A stretch of 64,000 bases of DNA from Naegleria gruberi (lineage: Eukaryota). The notes under the pieces are model-generated. The model ran no database searches and was not told the origin of the DNA. It worked only from the letters and a program-made list of their open reading frames with translations. Shown here one piece after another: positions 12,485 to 58,203 of this stretch (within the stretch, counting starts at the first letter, position 1; every line of letters begins with the position of its first letter). The stretch is taken from NCBI GenBank assembly GCA_000004985.1, contig GG738867.1; one strand, given 5' to 3'. The position numbers were made by a program, and so were the translations under genes.

Positions 12485-14677
12485 ATGTCAACTTTTGGCT
12501 CCATCAAAAAAATGTCAAACAAACGAAATCTAATAGTGGTTATACTACTGACAGTAGTATTGCTATGTATTTCATCAGTGTACACCTTCACTGTGGATAA
12601 ATATTTTGATTTTAATGATGGAGTAATGTCAATTCAACAACAATCAAGTCAGGATTTGACAAGTTTATCAATTCGGAAGAAATTAATGGAAAGCACAGTA
12701 ATTGGTGTGAATGATTATTTTGCAATTTATTTGTGGAAAGACAAAATGATAAAAACTTACAATATGAGTCAATCACCTCAAAACCTAGACGAATTTGTTC
12801 AAATTATTCGAAACTCTAACGCCACCATGAGGTTAGCAGTAACTACTACTTTGAAACCATGGGTTGAATCATATGGCTACCTCTACGGATTTGATTCTAT
12901 TAGAAAACAAGTTAATTATGAAGATTTAACACCAGTTTCTGATTGTATAAAATCAGATAACATGATTGAAAATGATGGCTTTATTGGAACTGCATCGAGC
13001 ATTTCATCTGCAGTGAAAGCTCACAAAATGATTTATCCAGAGAGGAAATCTGAATTGGAATTGAGAAATTTTTATTCGCTTCGTTACATTCCTAAAAGTT
13101 TAGTTGTGGCATCGAGTGTTTCAATGGAGCAAAATGTTGAATTCCTATCGAATATTATTGACAATAATATTGGATATTTAAATGCTTCTTCTCAATGTGG
13201 AACACCTCAAGTTCTTTCTAGAGATGCTGCTTGGGCAAGATATGGATTCTCATTTGTTAATTTCACAGTTACTGATATTCGAAACGTTGAAAGAATGTAT
13301 AATATTTCAATTAATTTTGACAATAGATATGCAAATACAGTGATTGAGAAGTATAGAAACTATGTCTATTTCAATGAGAGTATGAGTTCAGTTCTGAAAC
13401 AAATGTCAGATTCATCATGTATGCAATGTCCATATGAATTGTGCTATGCTTTCGGTTCACAAGATTATGCTTCATATATTGGTGTTGGAATTGCCATATT
13501 CTATTTTATATTGCTGTTTTCACTGGGAATGTTCAGATCATATTCTCTCAAGAGAAGATTATTCGTTCCTTATTTACCTTTATTTGGAATATTGAGAAAT
13601 TTTTCAAATACTCAAATGTTGTCTGCATCCTGCCAATCTGTTTCTAGACCAATGGCTCTATTTGCTTCAATAGTGATTATTGCTGTATACTTTTTTACGA
13701 TTATGAGATATGTCTATATGAGGAACATGTATTCATTCCTTTCCAATTCGAATAAGAGTACCGCTTTCCACAAGAGAATTTTATCAATTCCATTCGCACT
13801 TTCAATGTCCCTTGCTTTCATTTTAGTACTTTCAATCATTGTAGTTTTACCTCCAACTGTTGCTTTTGAAATATTCAATGACAATAATATTATTAATGGT
13901 GTTGGAGCTGGAGTAATTTTCCTTTCTCTAATTTCAAGTGTGAGCTTTTTGATGGTTGACTTATTTTTGAATAGGAATAATATCAAAAGATATGGAATTT
14001 TAAAGTTCTTGTTCTTTGATGATCCAATTTATCTCAGAATTGACATTGCCTTCCAAGCCATGATTCTCATCTTTTTGATTCTCTACATTTCAGTCTCATT
14101 TGTTGAAACCATATTTCCAGCAATTATGGATGTTTGCATCTCAATATCAGTCATTCTCATTTGTGGAGGAAACGCAATGATTATTGAGATCTCTAAAAAG
14201 ATCATCTACAAGGACAGAACTGCTCAAACCCAACAATCAGATCTGGAAAATCTAATGGAGAAGAATAAGGAATTTTACACACTAATGAGTGAATATTCAA
14301 GGAAGGAATTTTCATATGAGAACGTTGCCTTCTACGATGCCATTTTGGATTACAAGAGCTCACGTAAATCCCTCTCATTAGATGACTTGAAAAGGATTGA
14401 AACAGAATTCATACATCCCTTCTCAAAGTATGAAGTGAATCTGCCATCACAAGTGAAGAAGGATCTCTCCTCTCTCATTCAAGACCTTTCTGTTCCTTCG
14501 AATCAATCAGATCATGAGACTAAGATCAAGACAAGAAAGCATCAACTCATAGAGACCATGTTTTTAGAGTTGTGTAAAAACCTTACAGATACCTTCCACC
14601 GATTGAAACAAACTCAACAATATTCACAATGGTTGGCTGTTTACCAACTTCAAAAGGAAAATTCTCTCAATGTCTAA
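12485..14677 (+). CDS. Receptor-like 7TM protein with C-terminal RGS domain (7TM-RGS)
   Basis: The protein has a signal-anchor (LIVVILLTVVLLCISSV) and an ~330 aa Cys-containing ectodomain. About 7 hydrophobic helices lie between aa 330-560. An RGS-like block follows (…EFSYENVAFYDAILDYK…IETEFI…). An alternative start ATG lies at 12512. Confidence 0.6.
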   Translation: MSTFGSIKKMSNKRNLIVVILLTVVLLCISSVYTFTVDKYFDFNDGVMSIQQQSSQDLTSLSIRKKLMESTVIGVNDYFAIYLWKDKMIKTYNMSQSPQNLDEFVQIIRNSNATMRLAVTTTLKPWVESYGYLYGFDSIRKQVNYEDLTPVSDCIKSDNMIENDGFIGTASSISSAVKAHKMIYPERKSELELRNFYSLRYIPKSLVVASSVSMEQNVEFLSNIIDNNIGYLNASSQCGTPQVLSRDAAWARYGFSFVNFTVTDIRNVERMYNISINFDNRYANTVIEKYRNYVYFNESMSSVLKQMSDSSCMQCPYELCYAFGSQDYASYIGVGIAIFYFILLFSLGMFRSYSLKRRLFVPYLPLFGILRNFSNTQMLSASCQSVSRPMALFASIVIIAVYFFTIMRYVYMRNMYSFLSNSNKSTAFHKRILSIPFALSMSLAFILVLSIIVVLPPTVAFEIFNDNNIINGVGAGVIFLSLISSVSFLMVDLFLNRNNIKRYGILKFLFFDDPIYLRIDIAFQAMILIFLILYISVSFVETIFPAIMDVCISISVILICGGNAMIIEISKKIIYKDRTAQTQQSDLENLMEKNKEFYTLMSEYSRKEFSYENVAFYDAILDYKSSRKSLSLDDLKRIETEFIHPFSKYEVNLPSQVKKDLSSLIQDLSVPSNQSDHETKIKTRKHQLIETMFLELCKNLTDTFHRLKQTQQYSQWLAVYQLQKENSLNV

Positions 14678-15817: not shown

Positions 15818-18654
15818 CTACTCAGAGAATAGTGAATAATTATTCAAGTCAAGAGTTTTACAAGCAAGTGATAACTCTTGTTGCTGGTTAAGAAGAGCAA
15901 TTTCGTCATTGTCTTTCAAATCTTCAAGACTGTGAATTGCACACAAGTTCTCTTTTAACCTTATAAACTCCAAGCTTCTGTCATTAAGCTTAATTTTCAA
16001 CAATTCTATCAAATCAGAAATATTTCGAATATTGAGAGAAATCGACACAACAGCTCCTAAATCACATTCGTATAAGTAAGCAAATATTCTTCTTACACGA
16101 TTTTGAAGTTTCAAATGTGGTACAATATTAGAAAGCTCAATGACACACGAACCTTCTGTTTTCATGGCCCAAAAAACTCTCGAATTGTTTTCTTCAACAA
16201 TCAGAGAGTAGTCAATTAGAGGAAGAACATACGAGTTCACAATTGCATAACAAAAACCACCTCCAGTAACTCCAAAACCAATTCTGTCAGTTATATCAAC
16301 AGGAGGAAGGTACTGTTTTGACATTTTTGTGCCATCGGATTTGCACTCAATAGTCATTAACCCAGTTCTCAAACAAAAGGAAATAGTTTTGTTTCTAATA
16401 TCATCTTTGTCAACGTTTTCGGATGTGCAACCCATGAACAAGAATTCCAAATTTCCTTTTCTTTCCAGTATTCCTAGCTCGATATACCCAATCGTGAACT
16501 TATTCAAGGAAGCATTCAATGGAATGCCATTAGTTGAAATGGACACTTTAGAACTGGATCCAGATTGGATAAATTTCTCATTGCTTGTGCTTTCATTCCC
16601 TTTCAGGGTCTGGTCTGTTAACTGTTGTGATACATTTTCTAAATAGTGGTGAATACTTATTCCATGTTTTCTCATCTCTAAGCAGGTGAAATTGCCATTT
16701 TCAATATCTATATCATGAGATACGTGATTTTCATTACGAAAACACTGGAAACAAATCTTCTTATTGCAAGTTTTACATACATAATGCCAAAAATTACAAG
16801 AGCAAGAGCCTAAACATGTCCCATAGTATGAAGAACTAATCAGAAGAGGATATTCTTGATTGAAATCTTCTAATAATTCCTTAATTCTTATAGCTAGCTC
16901 AATCTTCTTTTTAGCATTATCGTCGTTAGAGGTACGATATCTGTATATTGTTTCTTCTGCTCTGTAATTGAAACATGTTTGGAAAGTTTTTTCTAATTGA
17001 TGAGGTTGTGCCAACTCAATTGCTGATTTAGTGAATTCTATTTCAATACTTGAAATAAATGATGAAAGAACTTGGAAAGGAAGGTAAGGTATACACAAGG
17101 CAGCAATTTCCAACCACTTATTACAAGAAGGGTGCTCCCTCCACAATAGTACACATTGTGTAAGGAAATTTCTTTGCGCAAACAATTTACGTGCCTTAAA
17201 GCTTTTACATAAAAGATTCCATAAGAATTCGCCAATGAAACTCTTGTTGTTAGCCTTGGAAATCTTTGATTCCTCACAGAAAATTCGAAGATCTGAATCT
17301 AAGATAGAGGAAATAACAAGTTGGACTGAATTGTGACTATGTAAGGCTTTTGTAAGAATTTGAAGGATTAAGGAGAATTTTTCAGTTTCTTCACTTGTCA
17401 ATCTTTCAATATTCTTATTGAAAGAAGAAAATTGAGAGGCCACCATTTGAATTCCATCATTTTCACTGACAAAGGAGTTTAAATAATCCTTTTCATTAAT
17501 CCAACTATTGATAATATTTAAACTTCTAACTGAAATTTTCATTGATTTCATGCAAGCGGCTGACAACAAAGCAATAAATGAGTCGTTACATTTCGATATA
17601 TCATTATCATTCTTGTTTTCTATCATATTATCCCAGGTTGTAACAATTGGGTGTTGTAACAATTCTCTTGCTTCCAACCTGGAATCAGCATCGCAAACCA
17701 TCAACTTCATTACCTGCAAACTAGCTTTATCTGTCAAAAGTCTTGCAAGAATTTGTTGATAAGTCTTTACAAACCATTGATTACTTTGGACATTTATCAA
17801 CGAATTAATATCTAATTTTCCGTTTACCATTATTGCTAATTTTGCAAGGTTAGTTCTGTAATCTTTTTCTGGTAAACTTGCTAATACTTGGACAAAGATA
17901 ATTCCCAAAGAATAGACGTCCACTTTGGGAGTGTAGCTTTTTGTAAAAACTTCAGGAGCTTGATAGAAAACATCTCCAGCAATAGTTTTTGCCTTTGATT
18001 GATGAGCCTGTAATTGAGTGCCAACTCCAAAATCACCAATTTTAACTTCAACCTTATCCAATCCTTCCAACAGAGAATTTGTTAAAAGACTAGCATCATA
18101 TTTAACCATAATATTGTTTGGTTTTAAATCTTGAGTAAAATAGTTTTTTAAAAAGTTGATAAAGAAAACATACCTCTATGAATGATTTTCAACTCGTTCA
18201 ATTCTTTCAAGACATGTAACATTTTAATGAACCATTGGAAAGCAACTTTGGCAGAAACTTTGATATTTTCCTTTTTTAGTCGTTCTAAAATTTGATTCAA
18301 GTTTCCTTGACAAACTTCCATTCTAATACACAAAAACACCTTACTTATATCCTCTACTTTGGTAATTGGAGAAGTTTTCAAGAGTTTATAGTCATAAATC
18401 TTTACTATATTTGGATGTTCACATTCTTGAGCCAATTTAACTTCTTTTATAATTGAACTTGAATTTGTTTCAGACTCTTCAATAACTTTGAGTGCAAATT
18501 CTTCATTCGAATTAACGTCACGAATCAAATAAACAGATCCAAAATTACCACTTCCTAACGTATCAATCAGATAATACTTTTTATCTGCATAATTAATAAC
18601 CTTATAGGTTGATTTGGTGGTACTGGTCGACTCTTTTGATTTCGATAAACCCAT
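15818..18654 (-). CDS. Ser/Thr protein kinase with N-myristoylation-type start (MGxxxS) and B-box/ZZ-like zinc finger; 2 exons (18654..18174, 18129..15818)
   Basis: A 44 nt intron at 18130..18173 (gtatgt…ctcaag) joins …ELKIIHR|DLKPNNIMVKYD and restores kinase subdomain VIb. The protein carries GSGNFGSVY, ALKVI, DFG and APE motifs. Downstream of the kinase is a Cys/His cluster CLGSCSCNFWHYVCKTCNKKICFQCFRNENHVSHD. Total length is about 930 aa. Confidence 0.8.
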
Positions 18655-19000: not shown

Positions 19001-22000
19001 ATGGGTATTCTCAATAGCAAGGAAAGTCTTCCCAAGACTACTACCACCATCAGTAACACAATTGCAGAGATTGAAAAGAAGAAAGCTGTACCATCAAAAA
19101 AAGAAGAAACAGTTTCGTTTAGATGTTTCAATACAAATTGGTCTCTCATACGATCATTGGGAGAAGGATATTTTGGAAAAGTATATGAAGCAAAAGATTT
19201 GACTACTGGTTCTCAATTTGCTATCAAAATTGTGAGATTTGAAATTGCAAATGAGGAGTTAGCTCGAAGAGAAGTTGAATTTTCCAAGAATATTGATAGT
19301 TCAAACGTTGTCAAAATCTTTGATAGTGAAGTGATGGACAAGGATCCAACCACTGGTCTTCCATCGAATGGTTGCAAGTTTTTGGTTATAAAGATGGAGC
19401 TTTGTCAAGGAAACTTGAATGACATTCTAATTCAATTAATAAGTAGCAATCAAACTCTTAGAATTGATGTTGTTTTTGTTTGGTTTTTCAAAATGCTTGA
19501 TGTTTTGTGCGACTTTGAACAAAATAATTTAATTCACAGGTAAGTTTGAGCAGGTAATTGAAAGAAACTTGAATTGTTTCATACAGAGATTTGAAACCAT
19601 CTAATATAATGATAAAGTATGAAGGTTCTTCCCCAACAGAGTTTGAGAAAATTCAACTCAAGATTGGAGACTTTGGATTGGCAAAGAAAATGAATGGGAA
19701 CTATTCTAATGTTGGTACTTCAATATTTAAGGCTTTGGAAATTATTGAACAAGAGGAGTATGACACAAGAGCTGATGTTTATTCTCTTGGAATGATACTG
19801 TTGCAAGTTAGTTTATTGATTTCTGAGGGTACACTTGCTGAAAAAATGTTAATTATTGTATCTAAATATGAAACAGGTCCCTATGAAACTTCTTTATGGC
19901 GTATTTTACAAGATAACAAAAGATTGAATGAATTCTTTGGAGATGTTTTTTATGATTTAACTGATCCAGGTACAAAAGAACTACTCAAACAAATGATTTG
20001 TGTTGTTGAAAAAAGATTGAAAGCTTCAGAGTTACAAAATCATCCAATTGTAAAGACTTGGAAGAAAGTATTAGCTTATGGACCAAACCATAGAGAAATT
20101 GATTTGTTTGAGTTCAATAACGCACCAAACGGTAATTTGGTAATCCTTGGGCTCGTTCCATTGATCAAGATTGTTTCCAAGCCGTCTGTAGTTTTAAGGG
20201 CCTTGTATGTTCTAGAAAGAATATTTTCTGATAGTACTAAACTGAAAGAGAGATCAGAGTATTTTATTATTAATGGTGGTATAGAGGTGGTTATTGGATA
20301 TGTCAATTCACTTATTAAAGCACTAGTACCAAACGATAAGTCATCCAATTCGAAACCAAAAAAGGAGTTGATTGAAGAGATAAAATCACACACTATTAGT
20401 AGTTTGATCACCACTAATGCATCTATTAATGACAAGGTTAAGACAGGATGGAATTTGTCAGTCAAATTAATTGCTTCAATATTGGAAAATAGTGACAATT
20501 TACCTTCTGAAAGACTTCGATTATTGAGTGCATCACTTAGAAGAAGTGGATTGTTTGATCTAATATCATCTTTGAAAAAGATTGATGATAAGGAAAAGCT
20601 GGCAGTTGAAGCAGTTGTTCCTGTTGTAAAGATTATCTCATTCATGTGTAAACACAATATAAGCGTAAGAAGCAATTATGCAAAGAAAAGTTTCATCGTT
20701 GCACTTTTGTCATTATTGGTATCAGATGGAATGGACGAGTTGAAAGGTGACATTATCGAAACAATTGCTCTTGTTGTTCCTTACATTGATGGAAGTGATG
20801 AAAAACTTGAGTTACTTGGTTTTTTTAAAAACTACTTTTTGTCACTTTCAATGCAAATGGCTGAACCTAGCTGTTTGATAGCTAATGAACAAGTATTTGA
20901 ACAATACATTGACAAACAAGATGATCCCGTTGAAGGGTTATTATTGAGAAGCAAACTTGCAATGATGGTTTCAGATTACAAACAAATTTTAAGTAGATCG
21001 TACTATGGATTATGCTCTAATGTTGATAGATCAGATGACCATATCAAGATGTGGTGGTTTAGATGTAAAACATGTTTTGCAAATGATCCATCTCTTGGTT
21101 GCTGTTTAACATGTGGCTATAAATGTCACCTTGGTCATAATTTGTCTCTTCAATATTCATCATTTTATTGTGACTGCCATGTAGGTGAAGAAACAATACA
21201 AGGACACACATGCCAATGCAAACCTAGTCAGGGATCCTTATTACCTCACTTGTCCTCCTTCAAATTGACTAGTCCAATTTCCGGTTTTGTTTCTGAAGGA
21301 TTACTTCTTTGTTTAAAGGAACAGGATCAAGACAACCATTCTGATTTTACAATCATTAATTTTGGGGAAGAATCAACAGCAATCTCCAACCAACCAATAG
21401 TTTCTCTCAATAAGGTAAACGAAGCAGAAAGAGAAGAAACCATTGGCTATTTTTCAATTAAAGTCCTTTCCACTGAGTTCGACGACTTGAAGATTGGTAT
21501 TAGCACTTCAGATTCCAAGTCCATAGAAAAAATTACTGAGATAGACACAAATAACAGTATTACATATGATTTATCAAATGGTAATTTAATCATTGGAAAA
21601 AACTCTTTCGTTTATGGACCAGAGGGATACTCAACGTGTACTGTTGGCTTTGGTATAACAAACATGGGTAGAATTTATGTCATGTTTGATAGTATGGCAC
21701 TGCCACTAATCACTCATCAAACGCTGAATGATGGAAATGTTTTTGCTGTTATCAGAGTGGCTGGAACAAGTATTCTGAAATTCTCTTGTGATACTCCGAT
21801 CATAGACGCCCCACAAACTATTTCTTTTACATTAAAACCAGTGGTAAAAAAGGAGGTTGACCTTGATACCAAAGCTAATGACGAGATTGTGAATACTGAA
21901 TCAAATGTTAGAGTTGAATACTCTGTTTCTCAGAATACCTCTGCTAAAGAACAGTTGAACAGCAACTCTTCATCAACAGGTCCGATTATTGAGAAGAAAA

Positions 22001-22227
22001 TCAAGGTAAGAAGATACGGAAAGAGCAAGGGAGGAGTTTTACTTACTTTAACTCCTGATCATAGTAAAGATACAATTCTTGATCTTGCAAGAACGAAACT
22101 GAAAGAGCCATCAATTGTTTCTCTTAGAGACGAAGAATGGATTGAATATGATTGTTTCCAAGATTTTGTTCAGAATAATGTGTATCAGGCGTTGACCAAA
22201 GAAGATGAAGATAAGGAAGAGTTGTAA
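19001..22227 (+). CDS. Ser/Thr protein kinase paralog (MGxxxS start, kinase, B-box/ZZ-like Zn finger, long C-terminal domain); 2 exons (19001..19539, 19587..22227)
   Basis: A 47 nt intron at 19540..19586 (gtaagt…atacag) joins …NNLIHR|DLKPSNIMIKYE. The same intron position and phase are found in the divergent neighbour. The Cys/His cluster is CKTCFANDPSLGCCLTCGYKCHLGHNLSLQYSSFYCDCH. Total length is about 1059 aa. Confidence 0.8.
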
Positions 22228-30875: not shown

Positions 30876-33800
30876 ATGTCTGTCACCAAGATGGATCTCT
30901 CCATTGCGGAGAAGAAAGCCTACGACTTTCTTATTCGTCAGGAAGAAGCCAAACGTTGGATTGAAGAACTTATCCAAGAAAGTCTGCCTCCAGGCACTGC
31001 TAACTTTGGTGATAACTTGAGAGATGGTATTGCTTTGGCCAAGTTGGGTAAAATCTTTGCTCCAACAGCAATTAAGAAGATTAACACTCCAAAGTCAGGA
31101 AGTGTTTTGGAATTTATGGCTGTTGATAACATTTCCCAATTCTTTGAAGCCTGTAAGAAGGTTAATTTCCCTGATCACTATATTTTTGGTATGTGTTATA
31201 ATAGTAACAGCTTTTATTCTAATCTATTATGTTCATGTTGTTATTCAACTCGTATGATGATGATAATTTGTTGTTATTCCTTCCCTCGCTTTTTTCATCA
31301 AATCACAAAAAATAATCATCACAAAAATAATGTTCTTCCTCCTATGATGATGTTGATGGTGAATGATAATGTTATTGTTGCTTGTTCTTGATAATAGAGG
31401 TTACCGATTTGTGGGAATTGAAAAACGTTTGGAAAGTTGTTCACTGCTTACACACACTCTCCCTCCACTTGTATAGAAATGGCTTGGCCATTAGAATGCA
31501 AAACTTGCAAAAGGCTAACTTGAAGTTCTCCCGTGAAGAAATTGAAAAGACACAAAAGTTGATTGAAGACATTGCAGATAATGCTATGGCTTTCCCAGTT
31601 GATATTGAAGAAGTTGGTGAAGAAACAGATTCATCCATTGATGATGTTTTAGAAGATTTGGCTGATCCATCAATGTGTGATGCCGATGGTGAAGGTCTTA
31701 ACAAGGCAACTGCTGGTGTCGAAGCTAAATTTGTTATTACTGCAAGAGATTCTGATGGTGAAGTTCTCAAGGAAGGTAACGAATCATTCAAGGTTACCTT
31801 GTACTCTGTTAGTTTGCTGGGTCAAGATGAAAATGCTGAACGTGTTGTTATTCAAGCTAATGTTTCGAATAATGGTGATGGTACTTATGCTGTTTCTTAT
31901 ACTCCTGAAAAGGCTGGTGAATACAGAATGGAATTGGTTTTGTTCGATGAAGAAACTCAAGAAGAAGTTGATCAATTATCAAAGGTCTCTCCACAAAACG
32001 TTACTGTTTCTTCCAATCCAACCTCTGATCCATCAAAGAGCGTTTTGGATGGTTCTGGTATCGGTTCTGCTGTTGCTGGTGTTAAATCCGAATTCCAACT
32101 CACTTCATTCGATAAGTTTGGAAACCAAGGACGTGGAGGTGAAAACTTTAATGCTACTCTCACTTTCGGATCTGAAGTTGTTCAATGTCATGTAGATGAT
32201 TTGAATAATGGTAAATATCGTTTCTCATACACTTGTCCAAAGAGTGGTGAATATACTTTGACTGTCAAGTTGGGTGATCACGTTGTTGCTACCAAGTCAG
32301 TCATTGTTAAAGATGCTGGTATTTCTGATCCATCCCGTACTGATTTCAGTGGTATTGATTCTGTTCTCGATAAGAAGGCTGGTGAACTCTCTGCATTCAC
32401 TATTCTTGCTAAGGATACTCACGGTAATGATCGTTCATCAGGTGGTGAAAAGTTCTCTGTTACTCTCATTAATGGAAGTGAAGTTACTGAAGCTAGTGTT
32501 AAAGATACCAATGATGGTAAATACCATGTTGAATACACTCTTAACACAAGTGGAAACTACAAATTGCAAGTCAAACTTGGTGATGCTGTTGTCACTGAAA
32601 AGGATGTTCATATTCATGATACTGGTGTCACTGATCCATATCAAACTACTTTCAGAGGTGAAAACTATAAGCAATTCCCAGCTGGTAAGCAAATGCAATT
32701 CTTTGTTGAAGCTAGAGATAGATTCGGAAACAAGCGTGAAAATGGTAGTGATACTTTCATTCTCCAATTCACTTCAAAGGCCACTATGGAAACTGTTTCA
32801 AGTGATTTGATCAAATTCAATGATTTGGGAAGTGGTGAATACTCATTCGATTACACTATTGAACAATCTGGTGAATATGGTATGGAAGTTTTGTTGAAGG
32901 AATCTGCTGACACCCGTTCTGAAGGTGGTAGTGAAGCTACTTCATTGTTGAAGGCTTTCTTGAGAAAGTACAAGTACACCAATATTCCAGGATTCCCATC
33001 CACTACATTTGTTGATGATAGTGGTGTTACTGATCCACAAAAGACTCAATTTGCTGGTGACGGTGTTTCTAATGCTGTCCAAGGAAAGGAATCTGAATTT
33101 GTCATCAAGACCAGAGACTCATTCAACAATGTTCGTCAAACTGGTGGTGATAATGTTGAAGTCGTTGTTTCTAATGAAGCTAGAAAGATTGATCTCCCTG
33201 CTTCTGTCAAGGATAATCAAGATGGTACTTACACTGTTACTTATACTCCAAAGGCCTCTGGTAAGACTAAGCTCCTCGTTAAGATTAATGGTGTAGTTGT
33301 TGAAAGTGATATCTTGAAGGGTGGTGTTTTCGTTTCTCCTCCAGATATTAGCGATACTTCAATGCTCGATACTGTTTTGGATCATGACTTGTTATCTGCC
33401 TTGTTGAATGCCTTCAAGGTTGAAAATGATTCTGATAACTTGATCGAAAAGATTCAAAAGCTCCGTGAAGAACTCATTAAACAAATTCGTGAGAACACTC
33501 GTATTGAAGAAAATGTCAGAGAAAAGGACAGAAAGATTTCACTCCTTGCTGAAAATAGATATGATGCCGAAACAATTTTGAATCAACGTGGTGGTATTGC
33601 TGGTTATTTCCAACGTAGAAGACAAGAAAAGATGGCTACTGCTAATGATGATAAGAAGGAAAAGTTCAATATTAAGGATTACGTTGATCACTACAGCAGT
33701 TTGTTCTACTTGTTGCAAACTAATCCAAAGTATTTGGCTAAGTGTTTGTTCTTGGTTCCATCTCGTGATATGGACCAATTCATGCAAACTGTTACATTGA

Positions 33801-35635
33801 CTTTGTACGGTTATGCCTTCTCTCCTCGTGAAGAATATTTGATTTTGAGTTTGTTTAATGAAACTCTCCACCTCGAAATTCAAAACAGTTCAATTGATAA
33901 CTTCTTGAACAACAACCCAGTTTTGATCAAGTTGGTTGTTAACTATTGCCATGAACGTATCCAAGGTAAACAATTCTTGCAAAAGGTTTTGTTCGATAAG
34001 ATCTTGGAACCAATCATTGAAGAAAAGGATTTGAACTTGAATTTGAACGCTGTTACTATTTTGAAGGAAAGAATTTCCCAACAAGAAGTTGAAACTGGTG
34101 TTAAGAGCGATATCAACATTAAGGATATGACCTATGAAAAGGCTATGCAAGATGAATACGTCAGTAAGCTCGTCCAACAACGTACCAAAAAGATGATTGA
34201 CATTTGTCAAGGTGTTTTGGATACATTGAATGACAACATTAACGAATTGCCATACGGTTTGAGATATATCTGTAGACAATTGAAGGTCATGTTGGGTAAG
34301 AAGAATCCAAATGCTACCGAAGAAGATATTAACCGTGTTGTTTCATATTTATTGTTCTTTAGATTCCTTAACGGTCCATTCTGTGGTTGTGACTCTTACA
34401 ACTTGACTAAGAAGAAGATTTCTGCCAGTATGAGAAATAATTTGGCTTGGATTTCAAAGGTTTTGATGCGTGTTTCTACATTCAAAGAATTCGATAAGGC
34501 TTATGACATTCACTTCTGTGTTGTCAATGAATGGATTCAACAAGCTATTCCTACTTTCGTTGAAAAGTTCATTAAGCCAGCTATTGTTATCCCAGAACCA
34601 GAAGAACAATTGGGTGTCCATCAATTTATTGAACTCACTCAAAAGAAGTCACCTTCTATTACTATTACCTTGAACGAAATTGCTCAAACTCATGGTTTGT
34701 TGGCTAAGTTCTTGAACAGAATTGCTCCAGACGAAAAGGATCCATTGAGAGAAGTTTTGAGCAACTTCAAGGACATGATTCCAGAACAAGTTGAATCAAC
34801 AAAGAATGAAGAAATCAGTTTGCCACTCCAAGTTAGAACTAACATTGAAAACTTGGATTTGGAAGTTAAGCCAGAACAATTGTACGAAATTGCTAAAGAA
34901 CACTTCCGTGGTATTTTACGTGTCATTACTCCACAACAATTGGGTGAAAATGTTGCTGAAACTGTAGATAAGGCTGAAAAGTATGCCGAAGAATTGATCG
35001 ATAGTTCTAAACAAGAAGCTGATGGTATTCAATTGAAGAGAAAGGTTGAAGAACTTAGAAAGGCTCTTCCAAAGTTGGCTGATGCTGAAATTCTCTCAGC
35101 AGCCAACGGTTATAGAAAATTGTTGACTGATATTACTAAGGAAATTCAAAACAGAGGTGAAGTTAGAAAGAGACAAGTTCGTGAATTGGAACGTTTAACC
35201 GAAAGTTTGGAATCCCTCAAGGAACATCAAAACTTCCTCAAGGAAAAGGACAAGAGTTTGGACGACTACGTCCAACAAACCCTTCGTAACTACTTTGAAG
35301 GAAAGAACAAGAGAAAGCAAAAGTCTGGAAAGAAACAAGTTTACAAGTTCAGCTACTCTCAACTTTCAGAGAAGTATAAGGTTATTGCCGAAATGACAGA
35401 AGGAGGTGCTTTGAAGAAGGGTATCAAATTCCAAATCTCTATGGATGAAGCTAATCCAGGTTTCTTTACAGTTGAAGCTAAATTGGCTGGTGCATCACTC
35501 AAGACAATTAACTTGCGTCTTGATGAACTTTTGGACAAACGTGGCAGAGGTGAAGCTCTTCTCAAACTCGATGGTGTTTCACTCAATGTAAATATGACTA
35601 TTCACATGATGAATAAGCTTTTCGTTAGCAAGTAA
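30876..35635 (+). CDS. IQGAP-related protein: calponin-homology domain + ~8 filamin/ABP280-type Ig repeats + RasGAP-related domain + RasGAP-C; 2 exons (30876..31188, 31398..35635)
   Basis: A 209 nt intron at 31189..31397 (gtatgt…taatag) joins …PDHYIF|EVTDLWELKNVWKVVHCLHTLSLHLYRNGL. This matches the IQGAP CH-domain motif LFETVDLYEKKNMPRVIYCIHALS. The repeats are of the form G-x-G-L…A…F-x-I-x-T/A-x-D-x-G-N. The RasGAP-related domain carries …LRYICRQLKVMLGKK… and …YLLFFRFLNGPF…. Total length is about 1516 aa, with very strong codon bias. Confidence 0.8.
31650..33350 (+). repeat. Filamin-type repeat coding array (about 8 units of ~95 aa)
   Basis: The translation shows a recurring …SG-x-G-(L/V)…V…A…F-x-(I/V)-x-(T/A)-(R/K)-D-x-(G/F)-G-N…Y-x-(V/F)-x-Y-T-P periodicity. 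Confidence 0.6.
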
Positions 35636-36418: not shown

Positions 36419-39400
36419 TTATTTCAATTTGCTCAACATTTCAATAAGTTCTTGCAAATTTTCGTAAGTAACCATCACGCTTGATACAGAGTGGCCAACA
36501 CCTGAAATATTACCTGATGATTTTCTACCTAACGAACTGCTGTTCATTGAAATGTTCAACATGCTACTATTGTTAAGAATTGAAGAGTTGAGATTGCTCT
36601 TGTTCAGATTTTGTTTCTTCTTATCTGTGGCATACTTTCTTTGCATCAACTTGGATAATGAAACACATCTCTTCAACAAGTCTTCTCTGACGGCTTTCAA
36701 TCTCTTTGTGTCTGCCTTCTTAATTAGTGAAAGAGCTCTCATGAATATTTCTTCTCTTTCTCTGTAAATTTGAAGTTGATCGAATAAAATTTCGAACCAT
36801 TCATTCTTTTCGTGAACCAGACAATTCAAATACTTAATTCTTGTCAAATTAAGTAATATATCAAGAATGTGAATAAGAAGTTCAGTATGAGGTTTGGATC
36901 TATTGAGCATCTTGATAAAGCTGTACAAAATAGGAACTGCATTGTTGGTAACCAAACTTTCACAACAACTATCACTCCATGTTGTGGTTGTAGCCAAGTT
37001 AGCACATGCACTCATGACTTGATTAACAGAGTTGGATTTGAGCAATACTTCCAAAGAACGTTGGGTTCTATACTTGAGTTTCTTTCTTTCATCAACATTG
37101 GCAGATAAGGTTGTAATTCTTTCTCTGATAGCATTGACTTGATCAGCATTACAACGTCTAACCATGAAGCCTCTGAAAACCTTTTGGATTTTTGTTGCAG
37201 CATCATGCATTTGATGTGAAACACTCTTAATATGATTGATAAATCTTGCAGTAACATGTCTTCTTGCAAGTGCTTGCAACACCAAAACTCTATCTTCTTC
37301 TTGGCTTCTCTTTTTCTCTTCCAAAAATCTTCTGATAGATGTTTGAGCAACAATAGTATGTTCTCTGTCTTGGATGAATTCATTTTGGGCTTGTGTTGCT
37401 CTAATCATGGTTTGAGTATCAACAATGGTGCACATTTGTTGTTGGACTCTCTTTCTTTCCAAGAATCCTCTAATAGAAGCTTGGCAGCTGATAACATCAA
37501 AGGTTTCACAATAGAATGAGACACGAGCAAGTACGCCCTTAATGATTGCTTGACTAAGATAGATGTCATAATAGTCATCCAAAATACTTTCTCTATCATT
37601 CTTAGCTCTAAGGGAAGCTTGGATAGAGAGAATACCTTGTTGCATAAGGTTGGCCTTTTCTCTTTCTCTGAAACTTCTGATGGTAGTTTGAAGAGAAACA
37701 GCTCTATTGGTTTCGATTGAGTGATTCTTTCTATCTCTGAAACCTCTGATTAATGTTTGCAACAATGTGATGGAATTAATGCTTGCCTCTTTTTCTTGTT
37801 GGACTTGATGTCTTCTCATATTGGATTGAAGTGAAAGAACAGATCCAACAAAGTTATTGTACATCTTTCTAAAGAATCCATCTCTCATAGCTCTTTGTAT
37901 TACCATGAGCGATTCTGTTTGTCTTTGTTGATTGTTACGTTGGAGACGACCTCTGATAAGGGCTTGCAAGGTAGTGACTCTATCGAAAGATTCCTCCTTG
38001 TTCTTTCTATCCAAACTTCCCAAAATAATAGCGGATAGAATGTAAGCACGGTATCTGTCCATCAAAGTATCACACTCAAGAGTGAATCTTCTCATAAGAG
38101 ATTGCATTGATGTAATTCTTTCAGTGGATTCAATCATTGCATTCTCAGTTCTAACTCGTCTTAGCAAGGATTGCATGATTTGAACTCTTGATTCTTGGTA
38201 TTTTTGATGAGACTTTTCAATAAATCCTCTAGAAATAGCTTGCATAATGACGATCTTCTTCTGTTCTTCAGCAAATTGTCTTTTTGCAAAAAGGCTTCTT
38301 GCCAAAGATTGAATCGATATTATATCAGCCTTGTCTTGAGCGAATTGAGATCTCTCTTCTTTACCTCTAACTAAGGCTTGTGATTCAGAGATTAGAGAAA
38401 TAGAATCCAATACCTTTCTTCTTTCAACCAAACCTCTTACCATTGATTGTTGAAGAACAATAGCAGATTCATCTTCTTCCAAAGCATTTTCAATATATGA
38501 CTCAAAGTTTTGCATTTCTATTTCATTAAAATAGTCCAACAATTCGGCATAGTCAAGGTAGAATTGCTTTCTTGAAAGATAACCCCTAATGACAGCTTGA
38601 GTTACTTCAACGTCATAAATGTCATCGAGATGAGATTCTCTTTCAATAAAGCTTCTCATAATAGATTGAATATTGAGAGCAGATTGTTTGAATTCAAAGA
38701 CTTTCTTTTGATCTGCAAATGCTCTAGATAAAGCTTGAAGAGTGGTGACTTCTTTCTTTTGAACTACAGTATTCTTTCTACAAAGATATCCTCTAGCCAT
38801 TGCTTGTAGTCTGACTGTCAATTCCATTAGAATTCTGTGTTTTCTTTGTTGTCTAAGGAATTCCAACTTCTTTCTTTCAATATTAGCACGAGTACGGGCT
38901 TCTATAATTGTAGAGGCATCTCGTAAATTGTGGAGTCTTTTTTGCATGTAAATAGTGTGCATCCAATTTTGAATGACAACAAGGGCCTTAGTTTGAATGA
39001 CATTCTCCTTATGTAAATATAATTGATTGAATAAGTGGCCAATTTTACAGACCATTTGATGTTCATCATAATCCTTACTGATTTCTACTGTCTTCTTTTG
39101 AATTTTAGTTGGAGAGAATGAGGCACTCCAACATCCATTGTTGGAATATTGATAATGGTGCAAGAAATCTCTATTCTCTTCTCTAGGTAATATTTCTTCG
39201 AGAGGGAGAGGAGATGGAAGTCTATATTGATTAGAAACAAGGTTAAATACTATTTCTTCTTCAGTTTTAAGCGAAGGAGATGAAAAGTTCCAAACTTTGT
39301 ATTTGGCAGGCAGATTATCATACCTTTCCAATACAGCTTGAATCCATTGAAGAAGCATTGCAACTCTAATATCCTTATAACCTTGAATTAATGAAATTTG

Positions 39401-40563
39401 ATGAATTCCAATGCCGAAATTCTTGAGCTCGTGAACCAATTGTGCCATATTTACAGGAAGGGATTTTTCCAATTCTTTTTGTTTTTCTAAAATTTTTTGA
39501 ATTTCAGACCTAGCAGTACTTTGAATGATTCTCTTCTGAGTTGTGGAAAGACTGTTATTAGTAAGAGCTGATGAATTAGAAGCTACAGCTCTCGATTGTC
39601 CAATAATTGATGATGTTTCCTTTTTCATCTTTTCAGTCTTTTGAATCTTAGTCTTGTTGATGAGTGTAGATTTTTCCAATCTTGATTGCTCTGTTGGTGC
39701 TGTTGTTTTGGTTACTGGTTGAGTTCTTCTAACAATCATTGAGGAATTTTCATTTGGGAGAATGGCAGAAATATTACAAGTGGATAAGTTAAAGGTTGTT
39801 TCTTCAGGTTTTTGAGTGGTAGTTGGTTGTACTCTTGTTGTGTTAAGTCTGGATGTAGTAGTGAGTGGTTTCCTAGTTGTTTGTGCTTTAGTTGCTTCCA
39901 TAGCTTCTCCCATCAAGTAAACAGTAAATCTGAATCTTGTGTTCCACAAAAATACAAGTTGGCAAGAGATTTTACCTGGCTGTAATGGTTGCCAAGAAAT
40001 AGGTATTTGGTAATCTCCACATAGAGCTGGTATAGCATGTGAAACTTCACGAATAGTGAACCCAAACTGAACTGGAAGTTTTTCTACAGCAATTTCTTGT
40101 TGCTTTTGGATTGGATTTGATACAAAGAGTGTCATAACTTTTGATGTACCAAGTTTAACCCTACCAAAGTCAACATATACCTTACTAGCAAATTGTTTGA
40201 GAACCAGAGTTGGCCCTGTTGGAACACCAACTGGTTTTTTATAATTGTTTCATCCATTGTAGCAATAGATGAAAGACCAGAAAAGGTGAGGTCTTGTATT
40301 ATATTTTCCTTGTCATCAACCATTAGAGAAGTATTACTTCCAATTTGTGAAGTTTGAAGAAGAGAGGCATTAGATCGGTCGACACGGTCTACCACAAATC
40401 TGCTGAATTGTGCCTTGTTAAATTGTGGAGAGTTCATGATGGCAGCTGATTTGTTTGTTGTTGTTGATAGAATAGGAAGAGTTTGTGAAGTGTTGAGTGC
40501 ATTGTTGTTGATATTTTGTTGGTTGTTATTATTCACCAGGCTACCTAGCAGTGATCGATTCAT
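36419..40563 (-). CDS. ASPM/abnormal-spindle-like protein: ASH domain, CH-like region, ~30 IQ motifs, C-terminal ARM-like domain; probable 2 exons (40563..40278, 40230..36419)
   Basis: ORF 40132..40563 and ORF 36419..40135 are in different frames. A 47 nt intron at 40231..40277, with a non-consensus GTCTTT donor and an aaaaaaccAG acceptor, joins …QDLTFS|VGVPTGPTLVLKQFASKVYVDFGRVKLGTSKVMTLFVSNP, giving a continuous ASH-like fold. IQ motifs ([IL]QxxxRGxxxR) recur from about aa 430 to 1000. Confidence 0.65.
37135..38845 (-). repeat. IQ-motif repeat array (coding) within the ASPM-like gene
   Basis: IQ motifs recur every ~23-27 aa in the translation (e.g. LQALSRAFADQKK, IQSIMRSFIERE, VIRGYLSRKQF, LQALIRGRLQRN). 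Confidence 0.55.
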
Positions 40564-43854: not shown

Positions 43855-45720
43855 TTAGTGCTTGTCTTCTTTGTGAAACATTGATAGATAGTCTTTGTAC
43901 CATGATCTATGTGGATACTTTTTTCTATTGTCTTCTACTTGTTTCTGATATGAATATTCATCGGTCAATTCATTTTCACCAATTGGTCTCGTTCCATTAG
44001 CTGTTTTTTCTTTCAAAACTTTCAAAATTGTTTCCTCCATACTGAGACATCTCTTTTTCCATGTTGGATTTGCGACTAACTTATCGAGCCAATCTGGTAA
44101 GTGAACATCAGAGTAAATAATGTGTCCAAACCTTGTTGAATTCTTACCAACTCTGTACATGAAATAGACAAAGAAAATATCAACCATCACTCTTTCTTTT
44201 GGAACTGGATGGAAGGCTAGTGGTGCAGTATGTCCCACATTAATATATCCTTCCAGAACTTCATCAAATACTGTGCTTTGAGTGTGTGGAAATTGTCGTT
44301 TCTTAAACGTTGGTCCAAGATTCAAACAAGTGGTACAATATCTGACCACCAGAGGATTGGTGAGTTTAGATTCGTCATCATCCTCATCTGCTGTAAAGTA
44401 AGCAAGAGCTGATTGTGAGGCCTTGGGGTTTCCAAGAGTTCCAGGCTCATGATAACCAAGTGTTTCAATGCCAGTAACTTCTGTTCCTTTGAGGTCGTAG
44501 GCCTGAACATGCTTAAATACTTTCCAAACATCTTCAACTGGATATGGTAACAAGGTAACAATTTTGAAGAGTTTCAAACCATTCTTTCTGCCACTATCGA
44601 ACACATAGGAAGTTTTCGAATGAAACATCTGAGCTTTTGATGAAGATTTGGAATTTTTCATAGCTTGCCAATCAGGAGAATCTTCTAACAAACTCAATCC
44701 AAAATAAATGTCTCTATCGTAAATATAATTCTTTGTCAAATCTTTAGGTTTGTATCGAATATCCACATTGAATCCTCTTGAAATATCAACTGCAATACGT
44801 CTTGTAAATGCTTCACCTTGTAAATTGAGAAATTCAAACAATTCTTTCGATCTGTTAAATCTTGGAAATTGATCAATCTTTAAATCCAAGTTGACTGAAA
44901 AGATAATCTTTTCGAATAACACATCAGGATTCAACATTTCAAACAAATCAGTAAGTGATTTCATAGTTGATTGACTCATTTCAGATTCAATACTCGATTC
45001 ACTCAACTCTGATTGTGACCTTTCTAATAGTTTAGTTTCCATAGTTTCACTTCCTTTCTTCCCTTGTTTCTCTTGTTTTTGAAGGTGACCTTGCATGAGT
45101 GGAACAATTTCTTGATCCCAAATCTGCACCACATTTGAACTTGGTAAATTCAACTCTCTCTCACTTCCTGGTCTAATATACAAATCAATCAATGCACCAA
45201 CCGAATCGAATAGAATTTTACATGCTTTCAAACTCACATCCTGTTGTGAACTACTATTACTAGTACTCGTTGTTGCCCTATACTTGGCATACTCTTTCGA
45301 ATACTTTCCATAATCATTCAGAAACAACATTGGCTCCTGTGTACATGCCTTCTTTAAGTAATTTGAGAAAACTTCTCTTGCCTCCAAATTTGCCATCAAT
45401 TCATCGTAGAGAGCCATGTAGTGGGTGGCATCGAATTTCTTCTTTTTCTTTTCCTTGTAGATGATTTCTCCCTTTTCATTCTTTTTATTGTGATGATCTG
45501 CTGTTGTTGTTGTTGTTGATGACGATGCATGTTGTGGTTGATGGTGTTGGTGGGAATGGCTATTCGAAAGTGATGTATTGTTATTGGAATCTTGTGCGGA
45601 GGTGTTAGCTGTACTATTCGTTGGTTCGTTAGTGATAGTTGTACTATTTATTGAAGAGGATTCAATTAGTATTGGTGATGAGCTGAGAGGTTGCATTTCG
45701 GATTGCGTGGACGAAATCAT
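43855..45720 (-). CDS. RGS-domain protein with C-terminal START-like lipid-binding domain (tentative)
   Basis: After an S/T/N/H-rich N-terminus there is an RGS-like helix bundle (…YMALYDELMANLEAREVFSNYLKKACTQEPMLFLNDYGKYSKEYAKY…). The C-terminal ~220 aa have an alpha/beta pattern compatible with a START/Bet v1 fold. Confidence 0.45.
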   Translation of the reverse strand: MISSTQSEMQPLSSSPILIESSSINSTTITNEPTNSTANTSAQDSNNNTSLSNSHSHQHHQPQHASSSTTTTTADHHNKKNEKGEIIYKEKKKKKFDATHYMALYDELMANLEAREVFSNYLKKACTQEPMLFLNDYGKYSKEYAKYRATTSTSNSSSQQDVSLKACKILFDSVGALIDLYIRPGSERELNLPSSNVVQIWDQEIVPLMQGHLQKQEKQGKKGSETMETKLLERSQSELSESSIESEMSQSTMKSLTDLFEMLNPDVLFEKIIFSVNLDLKIDQFPRFNRSKELFEFLNLQGEAFTRRIAVDISRGFNVDIRYKPKDLTKNYIYDRDIYFGLSLLEDSPDWQAMKNSKSSSKAQMFHSKTSYVFDSGRKNGLKLFKIVTLLPYPVEDVWKVFKHVQAYDLKGTEVTGIETLGYHEPGTLGNPKASQSALAYFTADEDDDESKLTNPLVVRYCTTCLNLGPTFKKRQFPHTQSTVFDEVLEGYINVGHTAPLAFHPVPKERVMVDIFFVYFMYRVGKNSTRFGHIIYSDVHLPDWLDKLVANPTWKKRCLSMEETILKVLKEKTANGTRPIGENELTDEYSYQKQVEDNRKKYPHRSWYKDYLSMFHKEDKH

Positions 45721-47603: not shown

Positions 47604-47694
47604 TTTTTTCCTGATTATGAACTTTAAACTTTGCAAAACATTAGGAACTTAATAGCATTTGAAACATCAATTTAGAAAATTCAGTTACAAAAAA

Positions 47695-52874: not shown

Positions 52875-54075
52875 TACGATTATTACAAAATCAATAGTTT
52901 CTAGCTCGGTATCTCAAATTGCTCTGTTCCACCTAGGTTCAACAAGTTTACTATATAATCTATATAATCGTGTGCACCTTTCATTTTGCTACCAATCCAA
53001 AGATGGATGCAGGCAATCAAAGCAGACTATTCCACCATTCTTTGAAAACAGCAAAATTCAAAATCTAAAGAATCTTCCTTAATTAATAAATACAATAAAT
53101 TATTAAAACAAGATGTTGTATAGCTTCTACACTTTGAAAGAAGAAGATCCAATAAGTAAGAATTGTTATATTGTTCTTAAAGAAGGCGTATTAACATTGC
53201 TACTGGTTCAACCTTGCTAAAACCACAATATATTAATATTTTCCAAGGCACTTCCGAGTTTACTAATACATCACTCATATCCAGTTATTTCCAAACAGTT
53301 CTTGTCCAGGGATTTTACGTTGTTATTGATCGTCACTGTGAAACACGTAATTGCTGATTGCGATCTGCCCTTTTCTACCCGTTTTCTTGCTTGCGAAAGA
53401 GTTTGAGAAAACAATTTTTGAACTCTGAAAGCACTTCAGAGCAATACTTAATAGAAATATTCAAAATACGATAACTAATTGTAATGAGAGTTTCAGAAAT
53501 TGAAAATCCGAAACAATACAAAGATAAAGAAGAATAACTCACTTTCTGAATCAAATCAAGTGCCAAGCTTGATATCCAAAATAATCCATTTTGTTAAGTT
53601 TGACCTTCTTGGCAAAGATCAATAAACCAGCTACTACCTCCAAGCATGATTACAAGAACTCTACACTAATAATAGCTTATAATCATCTACAGTTGTTCTT
53701 CCATCTCAGATACTTGGTTCTAAAACAACATGACATGAAATTCTCATCAACTACAGTCTGTCATCTTTGTAATCAATAGCAACAGTTCATTTTATCTTCC
53801 ACGTTTAGAACCACCATGCCATTTAACGAAAATACGAAACAGTTTTTTATTCCTTTCAGTAATGGCCTTATTTTGATTGTTATCCAAGCTTGATAGGTTG
53901 TTGCCAAAAACGCTTCGGTTATTAACATCCAAAATCTCACAGAACCTCCCAAATGGCAAAAGTTACCTCTACATGGATGTTTTCAACTTCACATTTTACC
54001 GTCAATCAAAGATATTTCACACTCGCTCATCCACTACGAGGTCACAAAAATTTATCAGAAAAAACAAAAACAAAT

Positions 54076-58052: not shown

Positions 58053-58203
58053 TTTTTTTAATTGTTTACAATAATTACATCTTGATTTAAGATTGTGTAA
58101 TATATTGCATTTTCCTATTAAATTATATTTCATTAATAAAATCTTTTTGACCCAAATTCAAATTTCTGACCGTTACATAACAATTTGAAAAAAAAGTCGC
58201 AAA

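What the first reader, a model, noticed from the sequence alone, without database searches (positions are those of the whole stretch)
12485..14677. GPCR-like 7TM receptor with a large ectodomain and an intramolecular RGS domain
A single polypeptide combines a signal-anchor, a ~330 aa extracellular domain, seven predicted helices and a C-terminal RGS box (FSYENVAFYDAILDYK). 7TM-RGS proteins are best known from plants (AtRGS1) and are patchily distributed in protists. A version with a large ligand-binding ectodomain suggests receptor-regulated GAP activity on a G-alpha subunit.
Basis: partly seen in the sequence, partly recalled or inferred. Interest (0 to 1): 0.55.

Follow-up and report, generated by a model that had tools for sequence, protein, structure and literature searches.

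The report
Naegleria seven-helix receptor with RGS tail
This Naegleria gruberi gene encodes a membrane receptor with an outside sensor domain, seven membrane helices and an inside domain that switches G proteins off; the receptor type is already known from Naegleria and plants, and the likely new detail is that its sensor domain resembles bacterial solute-binding proteins.

Summary
Window 12485-14677(+) is one intronless 730-aa ORF from Naegleria gruberi. It is 100% identical to an NCBI "predicted protein" whose model starts at M94 and so lacks the N-terminal signal anchor.

What the protein contains:
- a signal anchor (aa 16-34);
- a glycosylation-sequon-rich, Cys-containing ectodomain (aa 35-328);
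- a C-terminal RGS domain (Pfam 33.6 bits, cut-off 23.9) that keeps the G-alpha-contact residues.

N. fowleri has 28 7TM-RGS proteins. Some have large ectodomains, and isolated RGS domains from three of them were shown to be G-alpha GAPs (Bosch 2022). This gene belongs to a Naegleria/Willaertia-specific subfamily of about 60 clusters at 50% identity.

The parts
12485..14677 (+). Complete intronless CDS, 730 aa plus stop, of a Naegleria gruberi 7TM-RGS protein
   Evidence: ORF listing. 100% identical to the NCBI N. gruberi predicted protein P0001 over aa 94-730.
12530..12586 (+). N-terminal signal peptide or signal anchor, aa 16-34 (LIVVILLTVVLLCISSVYT), preceded by 4 K/R
   Evidence: Hydropathy 2.7-3.35. 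Most full-length homologs also have an N-terminal hydrophobic segment. The segment is absent from the NCBI model, which starts at M94 (nt 12764).
12587..13468 (+). Ectodomain, aa 35-328. The folded alpha/beta plus helical core is about aa 62-310. It carries 6 N-glycosylation sequons and family-conserved Cys154 and Cys238.
13418..13444 (+). Cys-containing stalk C312-x2-C315-x4-C320, just before TM1 (family consensus S-x-C-H-x-C-x-x-T-x-C)
   Evidence: Cys columns conserved in 60-83% of 42 homologs. Consensus.
13469..14185 (+). Seven-transmembrane GPCR-fold domain, aa 329-567. TM cores: 329-350, 361-379, 389-409, 434-456, 473-495, 519-539, 546-567. Cys383 sits in the short extracellular loop just before TM3.
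14237..14659 (+). Cytosolic RGS domain, aa about 585-725, with an insert at about 667-690. G-alpha-contact residues: E608, F609, S610, E612, N613, N652, D702, T703, R706.
   Evidence: Pfam PF00615 33.6 bits, above GA 23.9. PDB RGS2/5/10/4 hits. Foldseek to RGS9 1fqk_B, TM-score 0.66. Residue mapping to RGS4. Family near-invariance of these residues.

Best explanation
This is a plasma-membrane 7TM-RGS 'GAP receptor' of Naegleria gruberi. It belongs to a subfamily found only in Naegleria and Willaertia.

Shown here:
- A signal anchor or signal peptide puts a roughly 290-aa glycosylated, disulfide-bonded ectodomain outside the cell.
- A Cys-containing stalk leads into a GPCR-fold seven-helix bundle that is closest in shape to class C transmembrane domains.
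- The C-terminus is cytosolic and carries an RGS domain with the canonical G-alpha switch-contact residues.

Inferred:
- The RGS domain binds GTP-bound G-alpha at the membrane and accelerates GTP hydrolysis, which keeps one or more of the many Naegleria G-alpha subunits switched off.
- A ligand or contact sensed by the ectodomain changes the receptor's conformation, clustering or trafficking. That would relieve or strengthen the GAP action, as proposed for AtRGS1 and the N. fowleri 7TM-RGS proteins.
- The ectodomain is probably derived from a type-II periplasmic solute-binding protein of the NMT1/SsuA/TauA/NrtA kind. That points to a small-molecule ligand, but this is the weakest step.
For: Architecture:
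- ORF.
- RGS HMM above the gathering cut-off.
- RGS contact residues E608/S610/E612/N613/N652/D702/T703/R706 correspond to RGS4 E83/S85/E87/N88/N128/D163/S164/R167 and are invariant or nearly invariant across 42 homologs.
- Seven hydropathy peaks in the family.
- Positive-inside counts of 13 versus 1.
- AF2 pLDDT 83.7, pTM 0.77.
- Foldseek match to RGS9.

Evidence that the ectodomain is extracellular: N-glycosylation sequons are enriched there, and there are six conserved Cys.

Family: about 60 clusters at 50% identity. Every named member is from N. gruberi, N. fowleri, N. lovaniensis or Willaertia magna. 22 of 42 members pass Pfam RGS at E <= 0.001.

Precedent: Bosch 2022 (PMC9283941) showed that isolated RGS domains of Nf 7TM RGS2-4 are GAPs for Nf G-alpha 2, 3, 5 and 7.

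Solute-binding-protein-like ectodomain:
- Foldseek hits to ABC-transporter binding proteins, probability 0.5-0.6.
- The ectodomain of paralog P0057 passes Pfam NMT1 (24.3 bits, GA 20.5).
- hhalign links this subfamily to the P0057 group (E 3e-4, probability 40%) and the P0057 group to TauA (E 2e-4, probability 47%).
Against: - There is no experimental evidence for this protein: no expression data, no localisation, no GAP assay, no ligand.
- TM2 is weakly hydrophobic in this particular protein.
- The Pfam RGS match covers only profile positions 2-83 of 117, because of an insert. The C-terminal helices are inferred from the AF2 model and from conserved D702/T703/R706.
- This protein has no Pfam solute-binding-protein hit.
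- The profile of all ectodomains against TauA gave nothing.
- The 7TM region matches no Pfam GPCR family in any of the 42 members.
Confidence: 0.72

Rival explanations
1. Bifunctional receptor. The 7TM bundle is a true GPCR that catalyses nucleotide exchange on a G-alpha when ligand binds, and the tethered RGS then shortens the signal (built-in kinetic scaffolding). On this view it is not a pure GAP receptor acting on self-activating G-alpha.
For: - Naegleria has G-alpha subunits with slow exchange that would need an exchange factor, yet only one cAR-like candidate GPCR was recognised by sequence in N. fowleri (PMC9283941).
- De Mendoza 2014 notes that GAP-type and GEF-type receptors coexist in some lineages.
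Against: - No sequence match to any Pfam GPCR family.
- No G-protein-coupling motifs were identified.
- No 7TM-RGS protein has been shown to act as an exchange factor in the papers read.
Confidence: 0.15
2. The RGS domain is a non-catalytic scaffold, as in GRK-, axin- or sorting-nexin-type RGS-like domains. On this view the protein is a 7TM adhesion or transport-related membrane protein that does not regulate G-alpha GTPase.
For: - The sequence match to RGS is modest: 33.6 bits, and PDB E-values of about 1e-3.
- There is an insert of about 25 aa between helices.
- With 229 RGS proteins in N. gruberi, many have probably taken on other roles.
Against: All the main G-alpha-contact residues of RGS4, including the critical Asn128 equivalent N652, are kept and are invariant or nearly invariant in the family. 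The best PDB matches are R4/RZ-type catalytic RGS proteins, not RGS-like domains.
Confidence: 0.08
3. The ectodomain is not a ligand sensor. It would be a lineage-specific structural or glycan-bearing module whose resemblance to solute-binding proteins is a generic alpha/beta similarity. The protein would then act constitutively or be controlled from inside the cell.
For: - This protein has no Pfam solute-binding-protein hit.
- The A2 profile against TauA was negative.
- The model has only about five strands followed by a helical half.
- Ectodomain sequences diverge fast (mean column identity 22%).
Against: - A paralog passes the Pfam NMT1 cut-off.
- hhalign gives E about 1e-4 for both links in the chain.
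- Fast divergence with conserved Cys positions is typical of receptor ectodomains that are diversifying their ligands.
Confidence: 0.3

Closest known systems
Naegleria fowleri 7TM RGS proteins (28 genes; Nf 7TM RGS1-4 studied; Bosch, Jeck & Siderovski 2022, PMC9283941)
   Same: Same genus. Same overall plan: extracellular N-terminus, seven TM helices, C-terminal RGS. The closest N. fowleri relative, FDP41_011245 (P0002), is 38% identical. Isolated RGS domains of three members (Nf 7TM RGS2-4) showed GAP activity on Nf G-alpha subunits in vitro.
   Different: The four studied proteins are much larger (RGS fragments at aa 1036-2459). Their ectodomains are described as EGF repeats, lectin domains and GPS motifs. 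This protein has none of these by Pfam and instead has a compact ectodomain of about 290 aa that resembles a solute-binding protein. I could not establish whether its N. fowleri ortholog is counted among the 28.
Arabidopsis AtRGS1 (plant 7TM-RGS)
   Same: Seven TM helices followed by a cytosolic RGS domain. The proposed logic is the same: a membrane GAP holds a self-activating G-alpha off until an extracellular cue relieves it (as described in PMC9283941 and PMC8584482).
   Different: From my own knowledge, AtRGS1 has only a short N-terminus and no ectodomain. A phmmer search with aa 1-585 against 1.84 billion representatives returned about 60 hits. The 22 whose clusters carried an organism name, out of 30 looked up, were all Naegleria/Willaertia apart from one spurious bacterial repeat protein. 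No sequence link to plant RGS1 transmembrane domains was therefore detected.
Class C GPCRs (mGlu, GABA-B, TAS1R, CaSR; and GPR158/179, which recruit RGS7)
   Different: There is no Pfam 7tm_3, ANF_receptor or NCD3G match. The ectodomain resembles type-II binding proteins, whereas the class C Venus flytrap is type I (my own knowledge). The margin over class A hits is small (16.7 versus 14.7). The RGS domain is fused in cis.
Bacterial type-II solute-binding proteins of the NMT1/SsuA/TauA/NrtA group

Membership tests
RGS domain (Pfam PF00615) | Match to the family HMM above the curated gathering score | tested here: met
   33.6 bits against cut-off 23.9, aa 587-683, profile positions 2-83 of 117. 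22 of 42 family members also match.
RGS domain (Pfam PF00615) | All-helical RGS fold | tested here: met
   The AF2 model has helices 585-725 with pLDDT mostly above 80. Foldseek to RGS9 1fqk_B: TM-score 0.66 normalised to the target, 143 columns.
RGS domain (Pfam PF00615) | G-alpha switch-contact residues (RGS4 E83, S85, E87, N88, N128, D163, S164, R167) | tested here: met
   E608, S610, E612, N613 and N652 were aligned directly. D702/T703/R706 were matched by motif D-T-F-H-R against D-S-Y-R-R. All are invariant or at least 90% conserved in A1.
RGS domain (Pfam PF00615) | GTPase-accelerating activity on a G-alpha subunit | not testable with these tools
   Needs biochemistry. It has been shown only for other Naegleria 7TM-RGS proteins (PMC9283941).
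7TM-RGS receptors (AtRGS1 / Naegleria 7TM RGS class) | Seven transmembrane helices N-terminal to the RGS domain | tested here: met
7TM-RGS receptors (AtRGS1 / Naegleria 7TM RGS class) | Topology with the N-terminus or ectodomain outside and the RGS domain in the cytosol | tested here: met
   Positive-inside rule: ICL1-3 carry 13 K+R and ECL1-3 carry 1. Sequons and conserved Cys are concentrated in the ectodomain. This is a prediction only.
7TM-RGS receptors (AtRGS1 / Naegleria 7TM RGS class) | Sequence homology of the 7TM region to plant RGS1 | tested here: not met
   phmmer with aa 1-585 against 1.84 billion representatives returned about 60 hits. 30 were looked up and 22 of their clusters carried an organism name. 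All of those were Naegleria or Willaertia except one spurious bacterial repeat protein. The other 30 hits were not looked up. The class is defined by architecture and may have arisen more than once.
7TM-RGS receptors (AtRGS1 / Naegleria 7TM RGS class) | Partner G-alpha subunits present in the genome | not tested
   None of the ORFs of at least 200 aa that I scanned in the window is a G-alpha. The literature reports about 44 G-alpha in N. gruberi (PMC8584482).
GPCR superfamily (Pfam 7tm_1/2/3, Dicty_CAR, Frizzled and others) | Match to a curated GPCR family HMM | tested here: not met
   No GPCR family at E <= 1 for this protein, and none at E <= 0.001 for any of the 42 members.
GPCR superfamily (fold level) | Seven-helix bundle superimposable on solved GPCRs | tested here: met
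Class C GPCR | Type-I binding-protein Venus flytrap (ANF_receptor), NCD3G Cys-rich domain and 7tm_3 | tested here: not met
Adhesion GPCR | GAIN domain with GPS autoproteolysis motif next to TM1 | tested here: not met
   No GPS or GAIN Pfam match. The stalk motif is C-x2-C-x4-C.
Type-II periplasmic solute-binding protein (NMT1/SsuA/TauA-like) | Match to a family HMM | tested here: not met
   No solute-binding-protein family for this ectodomain at E <= 1. Only paralog P0057 passes NMT1 (24.3 bits, GA 20.5), and P0050 is weak.
Type-II periplasmic solute-binding protein (NMT1/SsuA/TauA-like) | Two alpha/beta lobes joined by a hinge, superimposable on solved binding proteins | tested here: inconclusive

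The most novel reading that the evidence does not exclude
A subfamily restricted to Naegleria and Willaertia joins three parts in one chain: a sensor derived from a bacterial-type (type-II) solute-binding protein, a Cys stalk with a class-C-like 7TM bundle, and a catalytically competent RGS domain. That would be a 'class-C-like GAP receptor'. [quoted passage not shown] It would be a convergent mirror image of metazoan class C GPCRs and of the GPR158-RGS7 complex. I did not find this ectodomain type described for 7TM-RGS proteins in the papers I could read.
Probability: 0.3. Interest if true: 0.6.

Novelty: new member of a known kind. Interest (0 to 1): 0.35.

Why it matters
7TM-RGS proteins are the proposed receptors of the "self-activating G-alpha plus GAP receptor" mode of G-protein signalling. 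No ligand-binding mechanism is understood for any of them outside plants. A compact, confidently modelled ectodomain with a recognisable small-molecule-binding ancestry would give a tractable member for ligand discovery and structural work in Naegleria, a genus that includes the lethal pathogen N. fowleri.

On the practical side, the public gene model (637 aa) appears to be truncated at the N-terminus and lacks the signal anchor. That would mislead topology-based surveys.

Otherwise the gene is one ordinary member of a large and already recognised lineage-specific expansion.

Tried and rejected
- **Sequence search of the whole protein.** It found only the protein itself, because the word index limits it. 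The sensitive search was needed to find the family.
- **Profile of all 26 ectodomains (A2) against PDB sequences and against E. coli TauA by hhalign.** No signal. The TauA sequence came from memory and was verified as identical to 6ssy_A.
- **phmmer of the P0057 ectodomain against PDB.** Only non-significant hits (E 1.4), to the binding-protein-like module of MltF.
- **Profile search with the ectodomain subfamily A3 in the 5.8-billion-protein collection.** Nothing scored, not even family members, so the result is uninformative.
- **AFDB Foldseek search.** The library was unavailable, so I could not look for the fold outside the PDB.
- **Anantharaman et al. 2011 (the likely first description of such architectures).** Not held in the library.
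- **GPS/adhesion-type ectodomain, EGF and lectin.** Rejected: no Pfam hits.
- **Class C membership.** Rejected at sequence level.
- **G-alpha gene in the window.** Not found among the ORFs of at least 200 aa that I scanned.
- **Chance ORF or pseudogene.** Rejected: the reading frame is intact at 730 codons in DNA of about 32% GC, and homologs are conserved in four species.

Full report

Yes. Window 12485..14677(+) is a single uninterrupted ORF of 730 codons in DNA of about 32% G+C. The ORF cannot extend further upstream. The divergently transcribed neighbouring ORF starts only 180 bp away at 12304, so there is no room for a missing 5' exon.

The protein is 100% identical over aa 94-730 to an NCBI/UniProt "predicted protein" of Naegleria gruberi (P0001, 637 aa). 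The window is therefore N. gruberi nuclear DNA.

The public model starts at Met94 (nt 12764) and lacks the N-terminal hydrophobic segment. Homologs from other species align from about aa 50 onward, and most carry their own N-terminal hydrophobic segment. The longer ORF read by the first-stage reader is therefore the better model.

**2. Domain by domain**

*RGS domain.*
- Pfam PF00615 matches aa 587-683 at 33.6 bits, above the gathering cut-off of 23.9.
- The best PDB sequence matches are catalytic R4/RZ-type RGS proteins: RGS2, 5, 10, 1, 17 and 4.
- Alignment to RGS4 places E608, F609, S610, E612, N613 and N652 on RGS4 E83, Y84, S85, E87, N88 and N128. The numbering of my recalled RGS4 sequence agrees with the 1agr_E coordinates.
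- The motif D702-T-F-H-R706 corresponds to RGS4 D163-S-Y-R-R167.
- E612 is invariant in an alignment of 42 family members, and the other contact residues except F609 are at least 90% conserved.
- The AF2 model is helical over aa 585-725 and matches RGS9 (1fqk_B, TM-score 0.66).
- The HMM match stops at profile position 83 because of an insert of about 25 aa.

*Seven helices and topology.*
- In this sequence alone, a Kyte-Doolittle scan gives six strong segments after the ectodomain and a weak one at aa 361-379.
- The column-averaged hydropathy of the 42-member family shows seven clear peaks.
- AF2 (pLDDT 83.7, pTM 0.77) builds seven helices.
- Predicted cytosolic loops carry 13 K+R and extracellular loops carry 1.
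- The N-terminal anchor is preceded by 4 K/R.
- N-glycosylation sequons are concentrated in the ectodomain. Six Cys positions are conserved: 154, 238, 312, 315 and 320 in the ectodomain and stalk, and 383 in the short loop just before TM3.
- Together these place the ectodomain outside and the RGS domain in the cytosol.
- No Pfam GPCR family matches this protein or any of the 42 members. The GPCR assignment is therefore at fold level only, and the preference for class C is a small margin.

*Ectodomain.*
- No Pfam or PDB sequence match.
- A separate AF2 model of aa 55-330 is confident (pLDDT 85.5, pTM 0.83). It has an alpha/beta part of about five strands followed by a helical half.
- The full-model Foldseek search also picked up ABC-transporter binding proteins at probability 0.5-0.6.
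- At sequence level the support is indirect:
  - The ectodomain of the Willaertia magna paralog P0057 passes Pfam NMT1/THI5 (24.3 bits, cut-off 20.5), and P0050 is weak.
  - hhalign links this protein's ectodomain subfamily (A3) to the P0057-type group (A4) with E 3e-4 and probability 40% over 118 columns.
  - hhalign links A4 to E. coli TauA with E 2e-4 and probability 47% over the 'DLIGKRIAV' strand that opens lobe II. The TauA sequence was verified against 6ssy_A.
  - The broad profile A2 against TauA gave nothing.
- My reading is that the ectodomain is probably derived from a solute-binding protein, may lack part of lobe I, and is not proven to be one.

**3. Family and distribution**

A phmmer scan of aa 1-585 against 1.84 billion representatives found 60 clusters at E <= 1e-3, 47 of them at E <= 1e-10. 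I looked up 30 of them, and 22 of those clusters carried an organism name. Every named one is from N. gruberi, N. fowleri, N. lovaniensis or Willaertia magna. The single exception is a spurious repeat hit to a Nonlabens protein.

At least seven N. gruberi paralogs were named: D2VZT8, D2V1K1, D2W0F0, D2VKW3, D2VSM1, D2V4L8 and D2VIA2. The closest N. fowleri protein, FDP41_011245, is 38% identical. No plant RGS1 appeared among the hits I looked up.

**4. How it most likely works**

*Shown here:* the architecture, the predicted topology, an intact RGS contact surface, and conservation across four species.

*Inferred:* the cytosolic RGS domain acts as a membrane-tethered GAP for one or more of the many Naegleria G-alpha subunits, and the ectodomain and 7TM bundle couple an outside cue to the availability of that GAP.

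This is the model proposed for AtRGS1. It is also the model proposed for the N. fowleri 7TM RGS proteins, where isolated RGS domains of Nf 7TM RGS2-4 accelerated GTP hydrolysis on Nf G-alpha 2, 3, 5 and 7 and bound the transition-state form (PMC9283941).

The rivals are a combined exchange-factor-plus-GAP receptor, a non-catalytic RGS scaffold, and a non-sensing ectodomain. They are listed with their evidence in the Rival explanations section.

**5. Comparison with what is known, and novelty**

The class is established:
- 7TM-RGS proteins occur in plants, Trichomonas and many other protists (PMC3971589).
- N. gruberi has 229 RGS proteins and about 44 G-alpha subunits (PMC8584482).
- N. fowleri has 28 7TM-RGS proteins, several with large ectodomains carrying EGF, lectin and GPS modules.

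What I did not find in the papers I could read is an ectodomain resembling a solute-binding protein on such a receptor, or the class-C-like shape of its transmembrane bundle. Anantharaman et al. 2011, which may cover this, was not available.

I file the gene as a new, uncharacterised member of a known kind. There is roughly a 30% chance that it represents a distinct variant, a 'binding-protein sensor + class-C-like 7TM + RGS' receptor.

**6. Context**

The neighbouring genes are ordinary eukaryotic genes with no obvious functional link:
- two paralogous kinase/UBR-like genes;
- an acyl-CoA oxidase;
- a filamin-repeat IQGAP-like RasGAP;
- a Dicer-like protein;
- a haem peroxidase;
- DUF4116 repeat proteins;
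- a second, soluble RGS protein at 43858-45720(-).

No G-alpha gene was found among the ORFs of at least 200 aa that I scanned in the window.

Noticed in passing
window 12485-12763 (+): The public N. gruberi gene model for this locus (P0001, 637 aa) starts at Met94 (nt 12764). It omits 93 codons, including the signal anchor. Homologs align upstream of that point, so the deposited model looks truncated at the N-terminus.
   Followed up: yes
window 43858-45720 (-): A second RGS-domain ORF of 620 aa, with RGS at about aa 104-198 (25.5 bits, cut-off 23.9). It has a low-complexity Ser/Thr/Asn-rich N-terminus and no hydrophobic segments, so it is a soluble RGS protein and not a 7TM-RGS.
   Followed up: partly
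window 15818-18109 (-) and 19591-22227 (+): Two divergently oriented paralogous ORFs (29% identity over 617 aa). Each begins in the middle of a protein kinase domain (Pkinase profile from position about 124-133), so 5' exons are probably missing from the ORF calls. The second has a weak zf-UBR match.
   Followed up: partly
window 59525-63211 (-): Dicer-like ORF of 1228 aa, with helicase (ResIII/DEAD/Helicase_C), PAZ and two RNase III domains.
   Followed up: no
window 31382-35635 (+): ORF of 1417 aa with five filamin repeats, a RasGAP domain and a RasGAP_C domain (IQGAP-like). The adjacent 36419-40135(-) ORF carries many IQ motifs.
   Followed up: no
window 53953-55764 (+): Strong animal haem peroxidase domain (372.7 bits) in a 603-aa ORF.
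   Followed up: no
window 45960-47636 (-) and 56475-58133 (-): Two ORFs made of DUF4116 repeats (7 and 3 matched stretches).
   Followed up: no
P0057 (Willaertia magna KAL9643344.1), ectodomain aa about 42-350: This distant paralog keeps a recognisable NMT1/THI5-type solute-binding-protein signature ('KKKNITKMHDLIGKRVAV'), which passes the Pfam cut-off. It is the clearest sequence clue to the origin of the family's ectodomain.
   Followed up: partly
P0070 (N. lovaniensis KAG2373438.1, 1042 aa), same 90% cluster as P0039: UniProt names this family member 'Big-1 domain-containing protein'. Some paralogs may therefore carry additional Ig-like modules in the ectodomain.
   Followed up: no
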